The translations under genes were made by a program, and so were the position numbers. From the IMG/VR virus record IMGVR_UViG_3300031772_007968, positions 1 to 55,946 of that record: DNA of 55,946 nt; one strand, given 5' to 3'. This DNA is from a virus. Lineage: Duplodnaviria; Caudoviricetes. A model generated the notes under the pieces. The model had not been told where the DNA came from. It searched no databases and was given only the letters and a program-made list of their open reading frames with translations. Each line of letters starts with the position of its first letter. Position 1 is the first letter of the stretch. Positions 28,215 to 47,767 of the stretch are shown one piece after another.

Positions 28215-31200
28215 ATGGCCGGACAGATAATCACGAGAAACTTGGAAATGACGTTCAAGGCCCTCAGGAGCGGCATGCCCATCCCAGAGATGCCTGAAAC
28301 CCACATCATGTCCCCCGACATGAGCTCATATGCCCCGCCCGTCATGGCCAGCACCGGCAGCGGACTGGTCAAAACGGCCTCAAGCGGCATCATCTACACC
28401 CAGCCCCAGTTCTTCAGCCCCATCCACACCCCCATCAACTGGCAAATCCCGAGCAAGCGCAAGGAGCTGTACCAGTGGTCCCGCTACTATTGGGAAAACG
28501 AGCCCAAGGTTGCCACGGCGATAGAGTTCCTGTCCCGCTTCCCTGTGAATGGGTTCACACATGAGTGCAAGAACAGGCACGTTAAACGCTTCTACGACCA
28601 GTTTGCCAAGGATATCCGCCTCCTGAGGTGGCTCAGGATCATCAGCCACGAGGTGCATCTCTTGGGCGACTGTTTCCCCTTTCTTGAGATCGAATGCCGT
28701 AAGTGCGGCGGAGCGGGATACATCGGCGACCAGACGTGCGAGCACGGCGGTGGATCGTTCAAACGTCTCGTCATCCTCAATCCTGAATATGTCGAGGTGT
28801 ATTCGACCCCGTTGGTTCCCGATCCGGTCATCGCCTTCATCCCCAACGACGAGCTGAGGAACCTCGTCATGCGCCGTGGCCCAGGCCACGAGAAGCTTAC
28901 CGAGGAGCTCCGGAAGCTCATAGGAGCCGGAAAGCCCATCTCCCTCGACAACCGGTGCGTGTCCCACATCAAGTACATGGACAACGGCTACAACCGGTAC
29001 GGCGTCGGAATCGTCCGCAGGCTCTTCCCCATCCTCGCCTACAAGACGAAGCTAATGACGGCCCAGTGGATCGTCGCCGAGCGGCTCATCCTCCCGATCA
29101 AGGTTGTCAAGGTCGGAAGCGAGGAGAGGCCGGCCAGCGCCCAGGACTTGGCCAACGTGCAGGCGCAGCTTGCCCAGACGGCCAACGACCCCAACCTGAC
29201 ACTCGTCACCCACCATGCGTTCGAACTTGATTGGTTCGGTGCTTGCCACGACGACCAAACGGAAGTCCTGACAGAAACAGGGTGGAAGAAATTCACGGAT
29301 GTGACAGTGGGCGAAAAAGTTATGGGATACGATTCCCAAACCGGAACGATGAGCTATCAATTGCCCGAGGCAAGGCAAGAATACGACTACAACGGAACAA
29401 TGGTAACGATTTCTGGCAAACACATGGACGCTTGTGTGACCCCCAATCATACGATGCTTGCCAAGGTCAGAAAATGGAATAACGACAAACTTGGCTATGA
29501 TCATTCTGAATGGTGCAAGATCAGAGCCGACCAAGTTGTAGAAAACACGAAGTTCAAAGTGACGGCTGAATGGATTGGGGCCATCCCCCACGATCTTCCA
29601 TATAAGAAAATCCAGAAATTGTCACATCTCCCGTTGAATAACTATCTGACATTCCTTGGATATTTCCTTTCCGAAGGAGGATTCAAGGTTGACAACGGTG
29701 TAATCAATGCGTTCCACATTTCGCAATCCGAAGGAAGTTATTGTCTTGAGGATATTCGAAGGATAATGGGATTGCTCTCAAACAAGGTTCAAGAATCCAG
29801 GGATGAGAGAAGAGAACTGGCAAACATACAGTTCATAATCAATGACAGCGCGTTTGCAAGGGAACTTGTGACACATACTGGTCTCAAGGCTCACGAAAAG
29901 AGAATCCCAAGATGGGTTCTTGATCTTCCAAAAAGCGAATTGACAATCTTGTTGAATGCCTTGATGGCTGGAGACGGCAATGTAAGATTTTCTCCAAGCA
30001 CGTTGCCGAGGTTCAAATATTCTTCCGTATCTGAAGGACTTGCCGACGATGTATTGGAACTGACATTCAAACTTGGTTACAATTCAAAACTTGCTTTGGA
30101 AAAATCTGACAATCCTGACCACAGGGATATTTATCGCGTCTGCTGGGCATGCGAGTGCATGGAGGCGTCTGGCGGTGAAAGAACCGTCAAGGATAGGAAT
30201 ATTGGAAGAACCGAATATAACGGTAAGGTTTACTGTTTTACTATGCCGACTGGATTTCTTGTAACCCGCCGCAACGGCAAGATCGGCATTCATGGAAATT
30301 CGGGGAAGATTCTCCAAGTCACCGGAGAGTTTGAACTGATCAACCAGGAGATCCTTGACGGTCTCGGGATCAACAAGGCACTGCTTAACGGTGAAGGGCC
30401 CACATATTCGAACGCAGCGATCGGTGTCGAGGTGATGATCGACAAGCTGGAATCATGGCGGCAGGATTTGGCCGAGTGGGTCGAGCAGAAGATCTACCTT
30501 CCGCTTGCCATCATGAAAGGCTTCACCCAGAAGAACGAGTGGGGTGAGGACGAATGGGTGTATCCGCGCCTGAAGTGGAACATCATGCATCTCCGCGACC
30601 AGCAGCAGTATCGGCAGTTCATGCTGCAACTTCACGAGAAGCAGGCCATTTCAACACAGAGGCTTCTGGAATCGTTCGACATCAACTATGACGAAGAGGT
30701 CGAGCTCCTCAGGTATGAACGTGCACAGGGAGCCATTGGAGGCCCGCAGCCTGGAGCCGGCGGTCCTGGGATGGGCGGTGGGTTCGGCGGCGGGGCACCA
30801 GGCGGGATGCCCGACCTCAGCGGCCTCGGCGGCGGCGGGGGGATGCCTCCCATGCCTGAGCTTGGCGGGGCCCCTGGCGGCGGCGGGGCACCTGGCGGGG
30901 CCCCTGGCGGCATGCCCGGCGGCGGGGCTGGCGGGGCGCCCGCTCCTACGGCCGGAGCCAAACTGTCTGCGACAACGGCCAACATACAGGATTTTGGCGG
31001 GAAGGTTCTCAAGGAGAAGACTCGGGGCAAACTTGAGAAACAGAGGCAGAAACTCTTCGAGACCAATTCTGGACCGTCTAGGGATGAGAAGGGCAGGGTG
31101 ATGTTCACTGGTCCCGAAAGGCAGATCATGAAGGAGATCATCGCCTCATCCAGGAGGGGCGACATCAAGCAGCGGATCTTCCCGCAGTACCCGGTCAAGT

Positions 31201-31475
31201 TCGGATCGGAGGAATACACGATTGATTTCGCCATGCCGGACATCAAGCTTGGCGTTGAGGTGGACGGCGAACTTTTCCATTCGACGCCCGAACAGATATC
31301 CTCCGACAGGCAGAGGGATTCCAAACTCTCCTCGCTCGGTTGGACTATGCTAAGGTTCACTGACAGGGAGGTAGACTCCGAGATGAGGCAGGTCATGGAA
31401 ACGGTCATCAAATATGTGACTCAGAAAGAGGCACTTCTGAAAAGTGCATCCGAATCCCAGACTCCCCGAAAGTGA
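28215..31475 (+). CDS. Portal protein with intein, Gly/Pro linker and C-terminal DUF559/Vsr-like nuclease domain
   Basis: Portal-like EPKVATAIEF, LLGDCFPF, LNPEYVEV, SHIK...YGVGIV, EILDGLGINKALL; C-terminal YTIDFA...LGVEVDGELFH...DRQRD...GWTMLRF; lies upstream of protease and MCP. Confidence 0.85.
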   Translation: MAGQIITRNLEMTFKALRSGMPIPEMPETHIMSPDMSSYAPPVMASTGSGLVKTASSGIIYTQPQFFSPIHTPINWQIPSKRKELYQWSRYYWENEPKVATAIEFLSRFPVNGFTHECKNRHVKRFYDQFAKDIRLLRWLRIISHEVHLLGDCFPFLEIECRKCGGAGYIGDQTCEHGGGSFKRLVILNPEYVEVYSTPLVPDPVIAFIPNDELRNLVMRRGPGHEKLTEELRKLIGAGKPISLDNRCVSHIKYMDNGYNRYGVGIVRRLFPILAYKTKLMTAQWIVAERLILPIKVVKVGSEERPASAQDLANVQAQLAQTANDPNLTLVTHHAFELDWFGACHDDQTEVLTETGWKKFTDVTVGEKVMGYDSQTGTMSYQLPEARQEYDYNGTMVTISGKHMDACVTPNHTMLAKVRKWNNDKLGYDHSEWCKIRADQVVENTKFKVTAEWIGAIPHDLPYKKIQKLSHLPLNNYLTFLGYFLSEGGFKVDNGVINAFHISQSEGSYCLEDIRRIMGLLSNKVQESRDERRELANIQFIINDSAFARELVTHTGLKAHEKRIPRWVLDLPKSELTILLNALMAGDGNVRFSPSTLPRFKYSSVSEGLADDVLELTFKLGYNSKLALEKSDNPDHRDIYRVCWACECMEASGGERTVKDRNIGRTEYNGKVYCFTMPTGFLVTRRNGKIGIHGNSGKILQVTGEFELINQEILDGLGINKALLNGEGPTYSNAAIGVEVMIDKLESWRQDLAEWVEQKIYLPLAIMKGFTQKNEWGEDEWVYPRLKWNIMHLRDQQQYRQFMLQLHEKQAISTQRLLESFDINYDEEVELLRYERAQGAIGGPQPGAGGPGMGGGFGGGAPGGMPDLSGLGGGGGMPPMPELGGAPGGGGAPGGAPGGMPGGGAGGAPAPTAGAKLSATTANIQDFGGKVLKEKTRGKLEKQRQKLFETNSGPSRDEKGRVMFTGPERQIMKEIIASSRRGDIKQRIFPQYPVKFGSEEYTIDFAMPDIKLGVEVDGELFHSTPEQISSDRQRDSKLSSLGWTMLRFTDREVDSEMRQVMETVIKYVTQKEALLKSASESQTPRK
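29244..30299 (+). mobile_element. Intein (352 aa) with LAGLIDADG endonuclease
   Basis: Begins FGA|CHDDQTEVLT; block B VTPNH; FLGYFLSEGG and LNALMAGDG; ends TRRNGKIGIHGN|S; visibly AT-richer than flanks. Confidence 0.92.
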
Positions 31476-40435: not shown

Positions 40436-40456
40436 AATAAATCAAGGAGATTGTTT

Positions 40457-41437
40457 ATGCCTCCGCCACGGAAAAAAATTGACGAACACAAACTGTATGA
40501 ACAATATGTCATACAACAAAAGTCAACGACTGAAATCGCTAAGGATAGCGAATCGTTATTGGGAATTAAAGTAAGTTCTGCTTTGGTGTATTGGTCTTTG
40601 GTTCGTTACAACATACCCATACGCAACAAATCACAAAGCATTTCTATGGCGAGGTGCACACTAGATCGAAATGAGACCTATATTGATGAAGCCACCATTG
40701 AATGGATTGATGGATTTTTACTTGGCGACGGATCCATTGGTTTTCGAAAGAATGACTTTATGAATGCTAGGTTTTCTATGGGATCTGTAGAAAGGGGGTG
40801 GACTATCTATGCGGTTTCCGGTCTTAAAAAATATCAGCTTTCTAAACCAAAACAATCTGGGGAAGTCTGTACCAGAAGACCCAACCGATCTTGGTTAAGC
40901 TACAGTTTGACTCATCCTGATATTGTCCAGCAAGCAAAACGCTGGTATCCTAATGGCAAAAAAGTAGTTCCTGATGATGTCAGAATCACCCCGACAAGCC
41001 TTTTGCTTTGGTATCTTGGGGACGGCAGCTTCTGTTATGATCCTGAACACAATATCCCACACTTGAGACTTGCAACTTGTGCATTTTCTCCAACCGATAT
41101 AGAGAATATTCTTATCCCCAAATTGGCCGCCTTGGGGTTGGTCTGCTCAAGGGAAAAAAGTAAGAACGACATCGGTATCCTATCGGAGTCAATCGGCCGC
41201 TTTTTCGAGATCGTCGGGCCGAAGTCCCCGATCCCGTGCTACAGCCACAAGTTCAGCATACCCGAGTGGCTCTCCCAGATCCACCTGTGCCAGATCGTGA
41301 AAAACGACAGGGAGAAATGGCGTGCCATCTATTACATCAAGAACGGCCAAGTCGAGTGCTCCAAGAGCCCCGGCGGCCACTTCCTGCTGTTCACCAAGGA
41401 TCAGGCCGACGCCCTGTGCAGGAAACTTGGCAGGTGA
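40457..41437 (+). mobile_element. Free-standing LAGLIDADG homing endonuclease
   Basis: N-terminal HTH-like region; IDGFLLGDGSI and LLWYLGDGS; AT-rich from ~40330 to ~41180. Confidence 0.85.
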
Positions 41438-42908: not shown

Positions 42909-43322
42909 ATGAGGATATTCAAGCTTTCGGCAATGGACTGCGGCGGCTTCTGGCCGGCGGGCAAGGGCAAGCACCTGGACACACAGATGTTCCCAGAGTG
43001 CAAGAACTGGCCGTCGTACCAGCACAAGGGCAAGAAGAAGACCAAGAAGGCAGACGCCGACGAAGGCCTTCGGACAGAGGCGGCCAAGCTCAGATGCTCC
43101 AACTGCGGTCACCCCGTTCTCAGGAGGCACCGTTCCGGCCGCGAGGGCCTGTATGAGTGCACCGGCTGCGGCCTTGCCGTCAGCACCAACGCCATCCCCT
43201 ATGAGGGGTCGTGGGCCCACAGCGAGGAGGTCAGGAAGCGCGAGGGCAAGCCCATCCCAGGCGCCGAACTGCGCAAGCTCCCCTCGGAGGGGAACATGGG
43301 ATACCCCCCTTCGGCCAAATGA
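42909..43322 (+). CDS. Zn-ribbon protein
   Basis: CSNCG...CTGCG; MRIFKL start. Confidence 0.65.
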   Translation: MRIFKLSAMDCGGFWPAGKGKHLDTQMFPECKNWPSYQHKGKKKTKKADADEGLRTEAAKLRCSNCGHPVLRRHRSGREGLYECTGCGLAVSTNAIPYEGSWAHSEEVRKREGKPIPGAELRKLPSEGNMGYPPSAK

Positions 43323-43383
43323 CCTGCCGCCCCGACAATAACCCGATTTTGCACAATAAACCTCCCAACTTTAGTGTGGAAAT

Positions 43384-44022
43384 ATGGCTTACGTTGAAGA
43401 CAGCCTCGACATGCCGCTGAGGGACGTCCTTGCGGCCATGCAGGAGCGCATCCAGAAGCGGACGACTTATTTCGGCGTCAAGGCTATGAAGAGCCCGATT
43501 GACCACTGGGTCTACCGCGAGCTGATCTGCGAGGCTCGCCCCGACTTCATCGTTGAGATAGGCAACGCATGCGGAGGGAGCACGCTTTCGCTGGCTCACA
43601 CCTGCGACCTGCTGGGGCACGGAAGGGTCGTGGCGGTTGACTTGTCGCACGCCGGAATTCACGAGAGCGTCAGGAGCCACCCCAGGATCAGCTTCGTCGA
43701 AGGCGACGCCTGCTCAAGATTCCCGGAGGTCATGGGGATCGTTGACCCAGGATCCAAGGTTCTTGTCATAGACGACAGCTCGCACACCTTTGCCAACACC
43801 CTGAAGGTCCTGTGGACGTATTCGCCGCTGCTCAAGGTGGGCGACTATTTCATCGTCGAGGACGGCATCTGCCGGCACGGCCTTGATGTCGGGCCGAAAC
43901 CTGGGCCCTACGAGGCCGTAGAGGCGTTTGTGAGGGAGAACCCTGACTATGCCATTGACAGGGATCGGGAGTCGTTTCTCATAACTTGGAACCCGAAGGG
44001 CTATCTGAGGCGGGTGTTCTGA
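43384..44022 (+). CDS. CmcI-family (cephalosporin hydroxylase/rhamnosyl O-methyltransferase-like) SAM methyltransferase
   Basis: KSPID.WVYRELI...PDFIVEIG.A.GGS, VLVIDDSSH, YFIVEDG, TWNPKGYL. Confidence 0.88.
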   Translation: MAYVEDSLDMPLRDVLAAMQERIQKRTTYFGVKAMKSPIDHWVYRELICEARPDFIVEIGNACGGSTLSLAHTCDLLGHGRVVAVDLSHAGIHESVRSHPRISFVEGDACSRFPEVMGIVDPGSKVLVIDDSSHTFANTLKVLWTYSPLLKVGDYFIVEDGICRHGLDVGPKPGPYEAVEAFVRENPDYAIDRDRESFLITWNPKGYLRRVF

Positions 44023-44170
44023 CAGCCTCTTCGACTTCGACTATCGCCACCCTCAGCGGCCTGTACCACGGGCAGTCCCTGTTGTTGGGATGGTGGCTGT
44101 CGTCCACGTCCCTGACGCAGTCAGGACATCTGCCAATGATGCTGTTGACGTACTCTATGGCTGTCACCAT
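43979..44170 (-). CDS. Small Cys/His protein (63 aa)
   Basis: GGAGG RBS; CPDC...HHPNN.DCPWY. Confidence 0.5.
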   Translation of the reverse strand: MVTAIEYVNSIIGRCPDCVRDVDDSHHPNNRDCPWYRPLRVAIVEVEEAVRTPASDSPSGSKL

Positions 44171-44238
44171 GTTCCATCCTCCCCGTCTTATCATTCGACA
44201 GGAACGGTTCCTTACCCTCCCGAATGTATAATGACCCA

Positions 44239-44289
44239 ATGGAACCCCGTAATGCCATCTTGGGCGGCCGATGGGAGGATGTCCTACCA
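44239..44289 (+). pseudogene. Stranded 5' remnant of the DNA methyltransferase
   Basis: MEPRNAILGGRWEDVLP versus MENVIINAKWEDALP (45357); preceded by TATAAT 44227-44232. Confidence 0.65.
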
Positions 44290-44305
44290 ATCCCGGCTCC
44301 ATACA

Positions 44306-44333
44306 GCTCTGTGTGGCTCTGTGTGGCTCTGTG
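44306..44333. repeat. 10-bp tandem repeat (gctctgtgtg, 2.8 copies)
   Basis: Read directly; at the left boundary of the AT-rich insert. Confidence 0.85.
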
Positions 44334-44475
44334 GTGGCAGTCTAGTCAAGACGGTGTCTTGGGCATTGGAAAACTTTAGGTTGTAGACTACCGAACGAAT
44401 ACGTCAGCAATCGGCTATCCAACCAAGAATGGGATATGACGGGCAACAAGGGGGCAATTCATTTTGATCACAAGC

Positions 44476-45114
44476 TTACTGGAAAAGATCAGAATGAGTA
44501 TTGGTAGATTTCTTAAAGGCCGTCCATTCATCTTCTGTCATATCCGCCTTGGCTCTGTTTTCGAACCAAGAGACAAATCTCAAGTTTTCAAGGCAAAAGG
44601 TTCCTCCCTTGCTCCGCGGATGAATGTGGTCTATTGATGGGTAGAGCCATTTGTTTTTGCCGCTGTTTATCCACAATGAATATAACTTTACAAACGAAGG
44701 ATCATTGTAGAATTTGTCTACAAACACCCATCTGTTGATGCTTTGAGATCTGACGGCCTGAATGTGTCTGGTTGTTACTTTGGTCAAGAATATGAGTCGG
44801 TCAAAGTCGGTATATTTAGTGAAATCAATGTCGGTCTTGAGTTTGATGATCATTTGTTCTTGTCTGAAGGCTAATGACATTTTTTTGCCCTTGCTCCACG
44901 GGATCAATCCTTTATGAGCAATGGATATCTTATTGCGAGTCGCTTGACTCATGGGTCTTCTTATGCGGGCGGCCCCGTCTATAGGAATACCATTTTTGAT
45001 AAGGACTCTTTTTATGCTGTGGTGATTGGTTCCAAAATGACTAGCTATCCGACGCAGTGTCCATTTTCCAACATCATAAAGTTCAACGATTTGCTGTTCT
45101 AATGTGATGTTCAT
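44476..45114 (-). mobile_element. HTH-NUMOD3-HNH homing endonuclease
   Basis: TLRRIASHFG; MSQATRNKISIAHKG..PWSKGKKMS; SIDHIHPRSKGG...NLRFVSWFENRAK; AT-rich. Confidence 0.85.
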
Positions 45115-45131
45115 TTTCCCTCAATCTTGGT

Positions 45132-45263
45132 TTAGATAGATGGTTTTCGCTCTTTGTCCCAATATGCCGAATGACATTTTGGACAAAGTACAATTTCACG
45201 CTTTCTAGGAACCCATTTATGGCCGCACCGTTTGCAGTTAACAAATCTAATATTGAATCTCAT
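45132..45263 (-). CDS. 43-aa Zn-ribbon microprotein (not in ORF track)
   Basis: MRFNIRFVNCKRCGHKWVPRKREIVLCPKCHSAYWDKERKPSI; TATAAT 7 nt upstream. Confidence 0.75.
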   Translation of the reverse strand: MRFNIRFVNCKRCGHKWVPRKREIVLCPKCHSAYWDKERKPSI

Positions 45264-45356
45264 ATTCCTTATTATACTCAGTGATTATGATCATATCCTC
45301 TTTTCTAAAAATCTTTTGATACATATTAGCCAGTATCGCTATAATGGTGGGGTAAT

Positions 45357-46157
45357 ATGGAAAACGTAATAATTAACGCAAAATGGGAAGATGCGTTACC
45401 CCACTTACCATCTGGCTCCGTTGATTTGGTATGTATGGATCCTCCTTATGGAGTGACCCCAGCCACATGGGATGTCAGGCCGGATTGGAATCTATTGATG
45501 TCCGAATTGGGCAGAGTGTGCGGTGATACTGGCCAATGCTGGTGTTTTGTCCGGATGCCATGGGCTATGGATGTGTATTTGGCCTCAATATCAAATGGAT
45601 GGGTTTGGGGCCAAGAAATAATCTGGGAGAAACAGAACGCCGGCGGCTGCACCGTTGGTACCTTCAGGAAGGTCCACGAGAACATATGGAACTTCAAGCG
45701 GAAAAACGCCAGGACGTTCAATCTGGAGGCCATACGAGTCCCGAAGACCACCCACGGCGACAAGTCCGTCAAAAGGAGGAAGGACTCGACGACGCAGTTC
45801 CTAGGGGCGAACAACAGCTCATATTCCGACGACGGGATGCGGCTTCCGCGCAGCGTCGTGCGCTGCAGGAACATACACAGATCCGAGGAATCGCTCGGAC
45901 ATCCGACGCAGAAGCCGCTTGACGTGGTGATCCCATTCGTCCTCTATTCTTCGAACCCCGGGGACCTCGTGGTTGACCCGTTCTGCGGGACAGGAACATC
46001 CCTTGTAGCAGCCAAGATGTATGCCAGAAGGTGGATCGGCGTCGAGAACGACCCGCAATGGCTCAAGGTGGCCCAGGAGAGGCTGAATTCGACGGCCGTT
46101 TTGGATCACAAGCCGACGGTCGGGACACAAGGAGAAAGCGACCTTTTTGCCGAATGA
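45357..46157 (+). CDS. Beta-class N4/N6 DNA methyltransferase
   Basis: DPPY, EIIWEK, HPTQKP, VVDPFCGTGT. Confidence 0.92.
   Translation: MENVIINAKWEDALPHLPSGSVDLVCMDPPYGVTPATWDVRPDWNLLMSELGRVCGDTGQCWCFVRMPWAMDVYLASISNGWVWGQEIIWEKQNAGGCTVGTFRKVHENIWNFKRKNARTFNLEAIRVPKTTHGDKSVKRRKDSTTQFLGANNSSYSDDGMRLPRSVVRCRNIHRSEESLGHPTQKPLDVVIPFVLYSSNPGDLVVDPFCGTGTSLVAAKMYARRWIGVENDPQWLKVAQERLNSTAVLDHKPTVGTQGESDLFAE
46129..46156 (+). promoter_or_regulatory. AAGG-N19-GAATG motif
   Basis: At the methyltransferase 3' end, upstream of 46193. Confidence 0.6.
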
Positions 46158-46192
46158 TAGTTTGCGGCATGTGAACCGCAGGAGAAACGTTT

Positions 46193-46465
46193 ATGAAGAA
46201 AATGATCAAGGAAGACGGCAAGGTGGTTCTGACGATGTCGAAGGCCGAATGGGAAAAGATCGGAAAGGACAAGGGATGGGGCATGGAGGCTCAGGAGCTT
46301 GAGAAGAGCGCACAGGCGTCTCCGAAGGCCGAACAGGCTCCCGAAGCCCCGGAAGCTTCGCCTGCGGCAATGGTGGTCTGCAAGGTGTGCAGCTACGCCA
46401 ACAGGCCCGAGGCGTTCGGAGCAGGATCGTGTCCGAAATGCGGATCCACGTTCCTTGACAGGTAA
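46193..46465 (+). CDS. Small Zn-ribbon protein with SKAEWEKIG motif
   Basis: AGGAG RBS; CKVC...CPKCG. Confidence 0.7.
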   Translation: MKKMIKEDGKVVLTMSKAEWEKIGKDKGWGMEAQELEKSAQASPKAEQAPEAPEASPAAMVVCKVCSYANRPEAFGAGSCPKCGSTFLDR

Positions 46466-46776
46466 TGTCCCCCTTGCACGGTGATTCGATGTGGATGGCT
46501 ACTCTCGACGACGGCACTGTCGTGGGGGAACGCGACCGCGGATGGGGTGAAATCCGCAGCCGCGTCGTCCGCCTCAGCCTCGTCTCCAACGGCAGGCAGT
46601 TCAGCCTGCCAGACCGGCAACCCGAATATATGCAGGCTAAGACGGCCAGCGTGCCGCTGGCCGGCGGAGTCGCCGAAATAGAGAGCCGGTGGATCGCATG
46701 CCGCACCGCTGGAGGCTCAGTGGTTAGGCTAAGGGTTGACGAGAAAACCGGCAACGCTTCCATAGAGGTGGAATGA
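46465..46776 (+). CDS. Hypothetical protein
   Basis: Coupled ORF; W.ATLDDGT. Confidence 0.6.
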   Translation: MSPLHGDSMWMATLDDGTVVGERDRGWGEIRSRVVRLSLVSNGRQFSLPDRQPEYMQAKTASVPLAGGVAEIESRWIACRTAGGSVVRLRVDEKTGNASIEVE

Positions 46777-46777
46777 G

Positions 46778-47284
46778 ATGTCCTCTTCCTCAGAATCTTC
46801 GTTCTCTGTGTCGTCTTCGTCGTCGCTCGGCGAACTCGCCGTTACGGTAAGGACGCGAGAATGGGACCCCGTTTCCAAGACGGTGGTGTCGGATGACGCC
46901 TCGGCCGTCTTCTTCGGCCCAGTCGCGCTTCAGTCCAAGAGCCCCATCAGGGTCGTGAACATGGTTGTCGAGGGGGCGTCCCAGGTCGCCAACGTCAAGA
47001 TAGGCCTGACTCGCGTCAACGACGGCAGCTATCCGGTGAACCAGACGTTCTTCATAGGGGTCTTCGACTCCCTTGACGACGTTGTGGAGCCGACCATTCC
47101 GTTCCCTGGTGTCAACTGGCGCGAGCACAACGACGACCCGAACAACATATCGGTCGGCCTGAAAACCGGCTCTCGATTTGAGTCCAAGTTCGTAGCCATC
47201 ATGGAAAAGGCTCCGCCTAGGCCTTGCGGGCCGGTGCGGTGCTCGTTCGAATGGTTCTTCGAATTCGTTTACGAAAAGGAATAG
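46778..47284 (+). CDS. Hypothetical beta-rich protein with N-terminal poly-Ser
   Basis: MSSSSESSFSVSSSSSLG; GAGG RBS. Confidence 0.7.
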   Translation: MSSSSESSFSVSSSSSLGELAVTVRTREWDPVSKTVVSDDASAVFFGPVALQSKSPIRVVNMVVEGASQVANVKIGLTRVNDGSYPVNQTFFIGVFDSLDDVVEPTIPFPGVNWREHNDDPNNISVGLKTGSRFESKFVAIMEKAPPRPCGPVRCSFEWFFEFVYEKE

Positions 47285-47296
47285 GCTGGGCAAGAC

Positions 47297-47767
47297 ATGC
47301 AGAATGAAAAGAACGTGAAAGCTGGAACCGCTCCGAAGACGCTGATTGACACGAGGAAGGAGCAGATCTCGGCCCTGATTCGCATAAGGCCGTGCGAGGC
47401 GGTTTCAGTAGCCAAAAAGCTAGTCGGCGAATATCCCGACGACGATGACGCTCTCGTGCTGTGTCTGAGCACGGCCGCGAAAGCCGAGATGCTGGGTGTT
47501 ACCGGATCGATGTCTGAGGAGCTGAGCGGGCTGGCGCAAAAGGCGTCCGAAAGGCGTTTCTTCAACCCCGACCTGCTGTCGCTGTCGGTCGCCTCCAAGG
47601 TGCTGACTGGCAAGGCTCTGGCATGCGACGACATGGCTCTGCTACGGAGGGCTTATGCCCTTGACCCGCGAATAACGAATGTGACGATGAGGGCTGTGCG
47701 CGACAGGCTGTCCGGAGACGAGCGGAAGGCTGTCGAGGCCATTGTCGGAACGGAGGATGTCTTGTGA
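47297..47767 (+). CDS. Hypothetical helical protein
   Basis: 156-aa ORF in the operon. Confidence 0.65.
   Translation: MQNEKNVKAGTAPKTLIDTRKEQISALIRIRPCEAVSVAKKLVGEYPDDDDALVLCLSTAAKAEMLGVTGSMSEELSGLAQKASERRFFNPDLLSLSVASKVLTGKALACDDMALLRRAYALDPRITNVTMRAVRDRLSGDERKAVEAIVGTEDVL

What the first reader, a model, noticed from the sequence alone, without database searches (positions are those of the whole stretch)
44227..46157. HNH cassette inserted into a DNA methyltransferase and supplied a replacement 5' end
Seen: a GC-rich stub TATAAT-N6-ATG encoding MEPRNAILGGRWEDVLP ends at 44289. An AT-rich block follows, with an antisense NUMOD3-HNH gene, a Zn-ribbon microprotein, a new TATAAT (45340) and the start MENVIINAKWEDALP. 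The methyltransferase stays AT-rich until ~45620 and then switches to host-like GC. Known: free-standing phage homing endonucleases spread with co-conversion of flanking DNA. Inference: a non-splicing element restored its target gene by carrying a diverged, cleavage-resistant N-terminus, so the methyltransferase is chimeric.
Basis: partly seen in the sequence, partly recalled or inferred. Interest (0 to 1): 0.7.

Follow-up and report, generated by a model that had tools for sequence, protein, structure and literature searches.

The report
Homing-nuclease cassette replacing methyltransferase gene start
A selfish DNA-cutting-enzyme gene has inserted into the start of this phage's DNA methyltransferase gene and keeps that gene readable without splicing, because it brings its own promoter, start codon and a respelled copy of the first 26 codons and leaves the original start behind as a dead stub.

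Summary
Two relatives with uninterrupted alleles (L083, which shares the neighbouring genes, and L082) show that about 1.14 kb of AT-rich foreign DNA (44290 to about 45434) sits inside the 5' end of an N6/N4 DNA methyltransferase gene. The stub (44239-44289) matches their first 17 codons (15/17 residues each; 46/51 and 41/51 bases). The insert carries an antisense HTH-NUMOD3-HNH gene, a 43-aa zinc-ribbon ORF, a strong promoter-like site, a ribosome-binding site and ATG, and replacement codons. Three-way site patterns put the end of the window-specific replacement just before the MDPPY codons (about 45434), not at about 45620. The low-GC3 stretch up to 45620-45700 is shared with the uninterrupted allele L082, so this cassette is not shown to have caused it. 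The HNH belongs to a family that sits next to methyltransferase genes: 66 of 85 relatives' loci have a methyltransferase just downstream, and 25 of 65 tested have a duplicated 5' end. The window is the only case with the HNH on the opposite strand, and it lacks the stop-containing coding gap that most relatives carry at DPPYG. The closest known parallels are the T4 MobA element (HomR) and fungal mitochondrial mORF gene hybrids. This scan has noted the same kind of element on other genomes. Verdict: a new variant of a known kind. Cleavage and homing are untested.

The parts
44227..44232 (+). Original -10-like TATAAT of the methyltransferase gene, kept upstream of the stub
   Evidence: Read directly. 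The same GTATAAT lies upstream of the ATG in L083 and L082 (alignment).
44239..44289 (+). Stub: the original ATG and codons 1-17 of the methyltransferase (MEPRNAILGGRWEDVLP), now cut off from the gene
   Evidence: 46/51 bases identical to L082 and 41/51 to L083; 15/17 residues each. blastn homology to both relatives stops at 44288/44289.
44290..44300 (+). Possible decayed remainder of the old codons around PSGS (shares GGCTCC with 45414-45419); the exact left break lies between 44289 and 44300
   Evidence: Alignment. One base at 44292 is missing in contigs of runs X4 and X10, as expected for an unselected remnant. The match is short and could be chance.
44301..44475 (.). Spacer of unknown origin between the stub and the 3' end of the HNH gene; holds a 10-base tandem repeat x3.2 at 44306-44338
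   Evidence: No match in any fetched locus or elsewhere in the window. TRF score 57. No unusual RNA fold (z 0.35).
44476..45114 (-). HTH-NUMOD3-HNH homing-endonuclease-like gene, 212 aa
   Evidence: Pfam NUMOD3 E 1.4e-5 and HNH E 0.012. PHROG 1035 E 1.6e-11 plus seven 'HNH endonuclease' PHROGs. D162, H163, N177 and N186 are invariant in 13 homologues. Model pLDDT 81.6. The best wide structural match is the HNH enzyme PacI, Z 5.2 over residues 85-212; residues 1-48 match HTH domains at Z about 5.
45132..45263 (-). 43-aa zinc-ribbon ORF (two CxxC pairs) just upstream of the HNH gene on the same strand
   Evidence: ORF. Zinc-ribbon Pfam hits are all below their cut-offs. There is a 50%-identical ORF in L115/L117, about 1.8 kb from their HNH (E 1.5e-10 in a small local database). 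It was not seen elsewhere in the HNH family's loci.
45316..45345 (+). Cassette-borne promoter-like site TTGATA-18-TATAAT, followed by GGTGGGG and the new ATG
   Evidence: Matches 11 of 12. The scan as a whole found no more sites than in shuffled sequence (2 against 2.8), so function is inferred.
45357..45434 (+). Cassette-borne replacement codons 1-26 (MENVIINAKWEDALPHLPSGSVDLVC), which stand in for 28 original codons
   Evidence: Three-way informative sites: in codons 1-15 L082=L083, window differs, at 16 sites against 3+1; in codons 16-30 at 12 against 8+2. The cumulative excess peaks at the codon before ATG GAT CCT CCT TAT. Residues 1-17 are at most 47% identical to any of 38 family members that cover them, of 41 compared. 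GC3 is 0.39.
45435..46157 (+). Resident part of the methyltransferase gene (codons 27-266 and the stop), with DPPY and FCGTGTS motifs intact
   Evidence: 80% identical in DNA to L082 from 45407 on, and 72.6% to L083 from 45438 on into the downstream genes. PF01555 covers residues 22-241.
45435..45700 (+). Older mosaic stretch of low GC3, shared with the uninterrupted allele L082 and unlike L083
   Evidence: Sites where window=L082: 59 against 15 left of 45701, and 47 against 44 right of it (max chi-square 14). GC3 values. Trees. The AU test is not significant.

Best explanation
About 1.14 kb of foreign, AT-rich DNA is inserted in the 5' end of the phage's N6/N4 DNA methyltransferase gene. On the minus strand the insert carries a zinc-ribbon ORF and an HTH-NUMOD3-HNH endonuclease gene. 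On the plus strand, at its right end, it carries a promoter-like site, a ribosome-binding site, an ATG and 26 respelled codons. These run seamlessly into the resident gene just before the catalytic DPPY codons, so the enzyme is made from the cassette's own start without splicing. The original promoter, ATG and first 17 (perhaps 23) codons are left upstream as a dead stub, and the 5-11 original codons between the stub and DPPY were lost. Shown: the insertion, the stub, the replacement and the intact downstream frame. Inferred: the HNH enzyme cuts uninterrupted alleles near the DPPY codons. The break is then repaired from a genome that holds the cassette, with homologous pairing on the right inside the methyltransferase body. 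On the left the join was illegitimate at first entry; afterwards the stub can serve as the left homology arm. The respelled left half of the site would protect the carrier from its own enzyme. The low-GC3 stretch from 45435 to about 45700 is an older mosaic shared with an allele that lacks the cassette.
For: Uninterrupted alleles: window 43000-44288 matches L083 514-1806 (84.8%) and window 45438-47286 matches L083 1844-3732 (72.6%), so 38 bases in L083 stand against 1150 in the window. For L082, 44225-44289 matches 594-658 and 45407-46158 matches 664-1415. Stub identity. Foreign composition. Extent of the replacement. Family habit: of 85 loci that encode relatives of the HNH (74 distinct HNH DNA sequences), 66 have a methyltransferase on the same strand within 950 bases downstream, 72 of the 85 having room for one. 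Of 65 tested, 25 have a direct repeat of the methyltransferase 5' end flanking the HNH at z of 5 or more. In 11 of the 13 repeats I printed, both copies run to the D(P/L)P(Y)(G) codons; in L134 and L167 the upstream copy ends earlier. The cultured Vibrio phage VnaP has a 40-aa 'DNA methylase' stub ending in DLP plus a stop, then a promoter-like stretch, then the HNH. L124 shows the same gap-free solution as the window: stub, HNH, intact replacement 5' end. No Rfam family matches the region. The same cassette junctions occur in contigs of three further runs. The published parallel is an HNH element that encodes a homologous replacement of the target stretch it deletes (MobA HomR; bioRxiv 10.1101/2022.08.31.505936, sections 6 and 12 read).
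Against: No cleavage, homing or methylation data exist. No empty-site allele was seen among contigs of 4 runs at 88% likeness or more. The uninterrupted alleles are only 73-85% identical relatives, so the event is not recent or its direct parent is unsampled. The HNH motif is below Pfam's cut-off and structure matches are weak (Foldseek none at E 0.001 or better; best VIA Z 5.2). The window is the only one of 86 loci with the HNH antisense to the methyltransferase, and no donor with that layout was found. The stub ends 5-11 codons before DPPY, unlike 11 of the 13 relatives I printed. A variant protein (P0121) is frameshifted after residue 153 and loses the HNH motif, so the nuclease may be decaying. 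The right boundary at 45434 rests on about 40 informative sites and could be off by several codons.
Confidence: 0.8

Rival explanations
1. The cassette came in together with a long co-conversion tract, so the whole N-terminal third (to about 45620-45700) is donor DNA. The uninterrupted allele L082 would then be a descendant that lost the cassette and regained the original codons 1-28.
For: Against L083, a breakpoint near codons 88-115 coincides with the GC3 switch. In the tree of residues 18-90 the window and P0002 sit away from L083/P0003/P0004, while for residues 91-245 all three group together. In L082 the switch from L083-like to window-like falls between codons 20 and 28, which is at the cassette site. 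The GC3 of the tract (0.48) is nearer the cassette's than the rest of the gene's.
Against: L082 has the tract without the cassette and with stub-type codons 1-20, which needs an extra loss or recombination event. L083, the supposed original allele, also has low GC3 there (0.51 against 0.71). The AU test does not reject one clade for the three alleles over residues 27-115 (p 0.176). Window-L082 DNA identity in codons 41-80 (78-83%) is like that of the rest of the gene.
Confidence: 0.15
2. The insert is a dead relic. It arrived by illegitimate recombination or as ordinary phage mosaicism that happened to include an HNH gene and a neighbouring methyltransferase 5' end. The HNH neither made the break nor moves the cassette now.
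For: No activity data exist. The layout (antisense HNH plus an extra zinc-ribbon ORF) is unique among 86 loci. No presence/absence polymorphism was seen in 4 runs. A frameshifted HNH variant exists.
Against: The link between this HNH family and methyltransferase 5' ends (66 of 85 loci; 25 of 65 with a flanking duplication) is hard to explain without targeting. The right junction falls at the same DPPY site as in 11 of the 13 relatives I printed. The window's HNH ORF is intact with all invariant family residues.
Confidence: 0.1
3. The cassette-bearing form is ancestral, and L082 and L083 arose from it by deletion.
For: The duplicated 5' ends could in principle recombine. Short shared strings (TACCA, GGCTCC) lie at both ends.
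Against: The 5' ends of both relatives match the stub (80-90% of bases), not the new copy (about 50%), so two independent deletions would have had to cross over at the extreme right edge of a barely homologous repeat. The insert's GC (0.31-0.45) is foreign to a genome of 0.57 GC.
Confidence: 0.03

Closest known systems
MobA element of T4-like phages (HNH homing endonuclease, gene 39/gene 60 split, HomR and the 50-nt bypass). Source: Manning & Atkins, bioRxiv 10.1101/2022.08.31.505936 (abstract, sections 6 and 12 read); Bonocora et al. 2011 is cited there and otherwise recalled.
   Same: An HNH gene of about 1.1 kb sits inside a phage protein-coding gene without an intron or intein. The element deletes a short stretch of the target and encodes a diverged homologous replacement (HomR, 67-81% DNA identity) plus a new translation start for the downstream part. 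The endonuclease decays in some genomes.
   Different: The target is a methyltransferase, not topoisomerase. The insertion is so close to the 5' end that the upstream piece is a useless 17-codon stub, not a functional ORF1 with a C-terminal extension. The window has no bypass cassette. Here the HNH is antisense and the element must bring a promoter. No sequence similarity to T4 gp60.1, one of two annotated remnants of the defective mobA, was found; intact MobA was not compared.
Mobile endonuclease ORFs (mORFs) that make gene hybrids in fungal mitochondria: Glomus atp6, atp9, cox2 and nad3, and Allomyces atp6. Source: Beaudet et al. 2013, PMC3630166 (passages read); Paquin et al. 1994 as cited there.
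   Same: A free-standing endonuclease ORF inserts in a coding gene and carries a foreign copy of the gene's end. That copy is joined in frame to the gene core, and the original end stays behind as an unexpressed duplicate with higher identity to close relatives.
   Different: There the 3' end is replaced, so no promoter or start is needed, and the endonucleases are LAGLIDADG or GIY-YIG in organelles. Here the 5' end, promoter and start are replaced by an HNH element in a phage.
Same-strand members of the same HNH family next to phage methyltransferase genes
   Same: A homologous HNH (35-53% identity), a target in the 5' part of an N6/N4 methyltransferase gene, an upstream stub, and a cassette-borne second copy of the 5' end that reaches the DPPY codons.
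   Different: In all 66 loci with an adjacent methyltransferase, the HNH is on the same strand as the methyltransferase and upstream of the second copy. Of 49 distinct sequence contexts, 47 carry a stop-containing coding gap at DPPYG or DPP, which the window lacks. None has the zinc-ribbon ORF beside the HNH.
Free-standing homing endonucleases of T-even phages with co-conversion of flanking markers (Seg and Mob proteins, 'intronless homing'; recalled, not read here)
   Same: A nuclease gene next to, or inside, the conserved gene that it is presumed to cut, spreading by break repair.
   Different: Those usually lie between genes and leave no duplicated gene end. Here part of the target gene has become part of the element.

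Membership tests
HNH (beta-beta-alpha-Me) homing endonuclease | HNH catalytic motif: a conserved His after a D/E, then Asn, then Asn or His, on a beta-beta-alpha fold | tested here: inconclusive
   Pfam HNH E 0.012 (16.2 bits, cut-off 21.4) and HNH_5 E 0.027. PHROG 1035 E 1.6e-11 and seven HNH PHROGs at E 9e-5 to 8e-3. D162, H163, N177 and N186 are invariant in 13 homologues. The model has strand-strand-helix at 159-191. Best structural match is PacI, Z 5.2, rmsd 4.5, 112 residues. Foldseek finds nothing at E 0.001 or better.
HNH (beta-beta-alpha-Me) homing endonuclease | DNA-binding modules typical of phage homing endonucleases (NUMOD3, HTH) | tested here: met
   NUMOD3 25.3 bits against a cut-off of 20.4. 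Residues 1-48 match HTH domains at Z 4-5 with rmsd 2-3.
HNH (beta-beta-alpha-Me) homing endonuclease | Presence or absence at one site among related genomes | tested here: met
   L083 (same neighbouring genes) and L082 lack the 1.1-kb insert at the same codon. No empty allele was seen at near-identity.
HNH (beta-beta-alpha-Me) homing endonuclease | Site-specific cleavage of the empty allele, and homing | not testable with these tools
   Needs protein and DNA at the bench.
N6/N4 DNA methyltransferase (Pfam PF01555, beta class) | Full-length domain with the DPPY motif and the FxGxG S-adenosylmethionine motif | tested here: met
   PF01555 E 1.2e-28, residues 22-241 against profile positions 1-221 of 221. 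MDPPYG and DPFCGTGTS are present. 40 close homologues are 49-79% identical.
MobA-type element | The element encodes a diverged homologous replacement of the target stretch lost at insertion | tested here: met
   Codons 1-26 at 45357-45434 replace 28 original codons. Codons 1-20 are about 52% identical in DNA to L082.
MobA-type element | A translational bypass cassette interrupts the nuclease's target site | tested here: not met
   The window's frame is continuous through MDPPYGVTPATWD. Relatives do have short stop-containing gaps there.
MobA-type element | The target is split into two functional ORFs with element-encoded tails | tested here: not met
   The upstream piece is 17 original codons followed by 29 unrelated codons. 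It holds no part of the Pfam domain, which starts at residue 22.
MobA-type element | The nuclease is homologous to MobA | tested here: inconclusive
   No similarity to T4 gp60.1, one of two annotated remnants of the defective T4 mobA (BLASTP E 1.1; hhalign probability 0.3%). The second remnant (the 'mobA' CDS) and an intact MobA were not compared.
Mitochondrial mORF gene hybrid | Endonuclease ORF plus a foreign duplicate of a gene terminus joined to the gene core, with the original terminus left as a remnant closer to relatives | tested here: met
   The stub is 80-90% identical in DNA to relatives, the new end about 50%. But the terminus is the 5' one, and the nuclease family and host differ.
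Group I or II intron, or intein | A ribozyme core, or Hint domain splice junctions | tested here: not met
   No Rfam match at E 1 or better in 43900-46300. The HNH is antisense to the gene. The second copy has its own start, so no splicing is needed.

The most novel reading that the evidence does not exclude
The window holds an inverted, gap-free member of a large, apparently undescribed family of HNH homing cassettes that specialise on the DPPY codons of phage DNA methyltransferase genes and carry a spare gene front end. In most members the methyltransferase is interrupted exactly there by a short insert (1-9 bases between the flanking codons as I parsed them) that always begins with a stop codon, and in 14 of 47 contexts shifts the frame. 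In the 34 contexts broken after DPPY(G/S), the flanking codons are both glycine codons in 26. The frame downstream stays open and shows a coding signature. If ribosomes hop over these inserts, this would be a second natural nuclease-linked translational bypass system besides T4 gene 60. The window would then show the alternative route to self-immunity: respelling 26 codons and adding a promoter of its own.
Probability: 0.4. Interest if true: 0.85.

Novelty: new variant of a known kind. Interest (0 to 1): 0.6.

Why it matters
It shows a third way, besides introns and inteins, for a homing endonuclease to live inside a protein-coding gene of a phage without destroying it. The element annexes the gene's promoter, start and first codons, so part of the host gene becomes cargo of the selfish element and the gene becomes a hybrid of two lineages. 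Three consequences follow. Trees built from methyltransferase 5' parts mislead. The short 'DNA methylase' fragments annotated in phage genomes, such as in Vibrio phage VnaP, are explained as stubs. And the junction predicts where the nuclease acts (the DPPY codons), which is directly testable. The wider family offers natural material for studying short-range ribosome hopping. The principle has precedents (MobA HomR, mitochondrial mORFs) and this scan has already met relatives, so the step is moderate, not fundamental.

Tried and rejected
DNA search of the phage collection with 43300-47300 found nothing.

As a result I could not see the contigs of the closest HNH homologues (P0122-P0128, 46-53% identical) or the 150-kb contig that holds P0001. 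No donor with the window's inverted layout was found.

Laying contigs of 4 runs gave no empty-site joint. These are low-depth contigs, so this says nothing about absence.

The spacer 44301-44475 and the intergenic stretch 45264-45356 have no relatives among the fetched loci or elsewhere in the window. No terminal inverted repeats flank the cassette. The 3' flank of the HNH has no unusual fold.

A profile search of solved structures with the HNH alignment gave only chance-level rows. Foldseek gave no match at E 0.001 or better.

The promoter and terminator scan found no more sites than in shuffled sequence. No minus-strand promoter was called for the zinc-ribbon/HNH pair.

The AU test on residues 27-115 did not reject a single clade, and I named that group after seeing the tree.

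Chance similarity of the stub, paralogue decay and an intron were considered and rejected.

Literature: four full-text searches found no description of an HNH cassette that replaces the 5' end of a phage methyltransferase gene. Subscription journals are not covered.
Full report
WHAT IS THERE. The window is a 55,946-base virus record that CheckV estimates at 12% complete. Its GC is about 0.57. Between 44290 and about 45400 the GC falls to 0.31-0.45.

- TATAAT at 44227-44232, six bases, then ATG at 44239, encoding MEPRNAILGGRWEDVLP up to 44289.
- A 212-aa ORF on the minus strand (44476-45114), with Pfam NUMOD3 above its cut-off and HNH below it, and PHROG endonuclease VII and HNH hits.
- A 43-aa ORF with two CxxC pairs on the minus strand (45132-45263).
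- TTGATA-18-TATAAT at 45316-45345, matching 11 of 12.
- A 266-aa N6/N4 DNA methyltransferase at 45357-46157 (PF01555, E 1.2e-28).

THE STUB IS THE ORIGINAL 5' END. A search of 5.8 billion proteins found a tight family of 40 homologues at 49-79% identity. The closest, P0002, begins MELRNAILEGRWEDVLP. One metagenome scan recovered its contig (L082) and a 23.6-kb contig (L083) that shares the window's neighbouring genes.

By blastn, window 43000-44288 matches L083 514-1806 at 84.8%, and window 45438-47286 matches L083 1844-3732 at 72.6%. For L082, 44225-44289 matches 594-658 and 45407-46158 matches 664-1415. Both relatives therefore have one uninterrupted gene where the window has a stub, 1.1 kb of other DNA, and then the rest of the gene.

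The stub equals their first 51 bases at 46/51 (L082) and 41/51 (L083). The conserved GTATAAT upstream is shared as well. The stub and the new 5' end do not register as a DNA repeat (z 0.5), so their relation is shown by the orthologues. This excludes chance and excludes a decayed tandem paralogue. The composition of the insert, and the fact that both relatives carry the stub-type start, argue for insertion here rather than deletion there.

HOW FAR THE REPLACEMENT REACHES. I aligned the three genes by codon and sorted variable sites by which two sequences agree.
- Codons 1-15: L082=L083, window differs, at 16 sites, against 3 and 1 for the other two patterns.
- Codons 16-30: 12 against 8 and 2.
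- After that, window=L082 dominates.

The cumulative excess peaks at the codon before ATG GAT CCT CCT TAT. The window-specific replacement is therefore 45357 to about 45434 (26 codons standing in for 28), give or take a few codons. Residues 1-17 of the new start are at most 47% identical to any of the 38 family members that cover them (41 were compared), although they keep the family's WED-x-LP pattern. The 5-11 original codons between the end of the stub and DPPY are gone. A possible remnant at 44290-44300 shares GGCTCC with 45414-45419, and it varies by one base among runs.

THE LOW-GC STRETCH UP TO ABOUT 45620. The composition change is real: GC3 is 0.48 for codons 18-92 and 0.76 after that. 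But the uninterrupted alleles show it too. The values are 0.56/0.78 in L082, 0.51/0.71 in L083 and 0.64/0.74 in L084. The 14 other alleles that cover both parts show no such drop.

Over residues 18-90 the window is 81% identical to P0002 and at most 62% to all others, including L083. Over residues 91-245 it is 85% identical to both. In trees, the window and P0002 are sisters for residues 18-90 (SH-aLRT 98), with L083 beside P0003 and P0004. For residues 91-245 the three group together. A maximum chi-square breakpoint lies at 45701 (59:15 against 47:44, chi-square 14).

So there is a mosaic boundary, but an allele without the cassette shares it, and the AU test does not reject a single clade for residues 27-115 (p 0.176). 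The simplest reading is an older exchange, possibly a trace of earlier nuclease visits at this hot spot. One hint in its favour is that L082 switches from L083-like to window-like between codons 20 and 28, which is at the cassette site.

THE NUCLEASE FAMILY AND ITS HABIT. Homologues of the HNH protein are 37-53% identical and share invariant D162, H163, N177 and N186. A profile search of 1.84 billion representatives finds 130 clusters at E 1e-30 or better and 425 at E 1e-10 or better. The AlphaFold model (pLDDT 81.6) has an N-terminal HTH and a C-terminal strand-strand-helix unit. Its best wide structural match is the HNH enzyme PacI, and only weakly (Z 5.2).

I fetched 85 loci that encode relatives: 80 viral and 5 from genomes, with 74 distinct HNH DNA sequences.
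- A methyltransferase lies on the same strand within 950 bases downstream in 66 of 85. Of the 85, 72 have that much sequence after the HNH. None has one on the opposite strand.
- In 25 of 65 tested, a direct repeat of the methyltransferase 5' end flanks the HNH gene at z of 5 or more.
- In 11 of the 13 I printed, the upstream copy runs to the D(P/L)P(Y)(G) codons; in L134 and L167 it ends earlier. In those 11 it is followed at once by a stop and a promoter-like stretch before the HNH.

The cultured Vibrio phage VnaP shows the same stub, annotated as a 40-aa 'DNA methylase'. The window's right junction, just before DPPY, thus falls at the family's usual site. Its differences are the antisense HNH, the extra zinc-ribbon ORF (a 50%-identical ORF exists only in L115/L117, not next to their HNH), a shorter stub, and its own promoter for the methyltransferase.

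MECHANISM. Shown: insertion, stub, replacement, intact frame, and the family's link with methyltransferase 5' ends.

Inferred: the nuclease breaks empty alleles near DPPY. The right end pairs with the methyltransferase body of a carrier genome. Synthesis copies the new 5' end, promoter, zinc-ribbon ORF and HNH gene. The left join was illegitimate at first entry, which would explain the unmatched spacer with its 10-base tandem repeat at 44306-44338. From then on the stub can act as the left homology arm. The respelled 26 codons would alter the left half of the site and protect the carrier.

The original promoter now reads into the antisense strand of the HNH gene. Whether that damps the nuclease is speculation.

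WHAT ARGUES FOR CAUTION. There are no functional data. No near-identical empty allele was found. No donor was found. The HNH assignment rests on sub-threshold motif hits plus family conservation. A variant of the protein, frameshifted after residue 153, exists on another contig.

COMPARISON WITH WHAT IS KNOWN. The MobA element of T4-like phages is an HNH gene of about 1.1 kb that inserts in the topoisomerase gene. It deletes 55-75 bases and encodes a diverged homologous replacement (HomR) plus a new start and the 50-base bypass (bioRxiv 10.1101/2022.08.31.505936, sections 6 and 12 read).

Fungal mitochondrial mORFs carry a foreign C-terminal copy of atp6, atp9, cox2 or nad3 and leave the original end as a remnant (PMC3630166, passages read).

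The window's element works like both, but it replaces the 5' end with its promoter and has no bypass. Its nuclease shows no similarity to T4 gp60.1, one of two annotated remnants of the defective mobA. Four literature searches found no description of this arrangement in methyltransferase genes.

This scan's own notes list the same kind of cassette on other genomes. They agree with what I derived independently here, but they are not independent evidence.

SIDE FINDING. In 47 of 49 distinct sequence contexts from the relatives, the methyltransferase frame is broken exactly at DPPYG or DPP. The break is a short insert (1-9 bases between the flanking codons as I parsed them) that always starts with a stop codon (TGA 20, TAG 17, TAA 10). 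Of the 47, 14 are not multiples of three. In the 34 contexts broken after DPPY(G/S), glycine codons flank the insert on both sides in 26. In the 13 broken after DPP, a proline codon precedes the stop and a pyrimidine-pyrimidine-N codon follows it. The 11 codons after the gap vary mostly at third positions (entropy 0.38, 0.26 and 1.45 for positions 1, 2 and 3).

This looks like short-range ribosome hopping of the gene 60 kind, but it is unproven. The contexts are not independent events, and part of the coding signature could predate the invasion.

Noticed in passing
L108-L188 (e.g. L108 3765-3785, L110 1675-1695, L135 3795-3815, L122 3725-3745): In relatives' loci the methyltransferase downstream of the HNH is interrupted exactly at the DPPYG or DPP codons by a short insert (1-9 bases between the flanking codons as parsed). 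The insert always starts with a stop codon. It occurs in 47 of 49 distinct contexts, and 14 of those 47 shift the frame. Glycine codons flank it on both sides in 26. The sequence after the gap shows a coding signature. This suggests ribosome hopping as in T4 gene 60.
   Followed up: partly
L193 2313-3130 (Vibrio phage VnaP, ON212104) and L194 2320-3121 (Pseudoalteromonas phage H101): Cultured phages carry the same HNH family. In VnaP it sits after a 40-aa methylase stub ending in DLP plus a stop, with no intact methyltransferase after it. In H101 a 44-aa ORF (2320-2454) of unchecked identity precedes the HNH, and a complete methyltransferase gene lies further upstream. The VnaP fragment is annotated as 'DNA methylase'.
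   Followed up: partly
window 44588-44674 (minus strand, the A-run encoding GKNKW): Protein P0121 from a 19-kb contig is identical to the HNH over residues 1-153 and then frameshifted, losing the HNH motif. This is either a decaying copy in a sister population or a homopolymer error. Contigs laid show no such indel.
   Followed up: partly
window 40451-41437: A free-standing LAGLIDADG_2 endonuclease ORF (E 2.7e-15) lies in another low-GC kilobase (GC 0.46). This is a second selfish nuclease 3 kb upstream.
   Followed up: partly
window 28215-31475: The 1086-aa ORF carries a LAGLIDADG_3 hit at residues 579-640 (intein-like; the 29-30 kb stretch has GC 0.49) and a C-terminal DUF559/MTES_1575 nuclease domain. 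This agrees with another note of the scan on this window.
   Followed up: no
window 44292: One base is missing in contigs of runs X4 and X10, just after the stub. This is a polymorphism in the presumed non-functional remnant.
   Followed up: no
L082 1-593: Upstream of about 30 bases before its methyltransferase ATG, L082 is unrelated to the window and to L083. The gene therefore sits in different neighbourhoods, as if it moves as a module.
   Followed up: no
P0127 residues 1-55: The called ORF of this HNH homologue starts with a stretch that resembles a methyltransferase N-terminus (...APGSVEF...). It appears to be a stub fused in frame to the nuclease.
   Followed up: no
L143 162-1617, L141 4411-5145, L185 1596-5593: Several phages with this cassette carry two or three tandem methyltransferase paralogues. 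How the other copies escape the nuclease is open.
   Followed up: no
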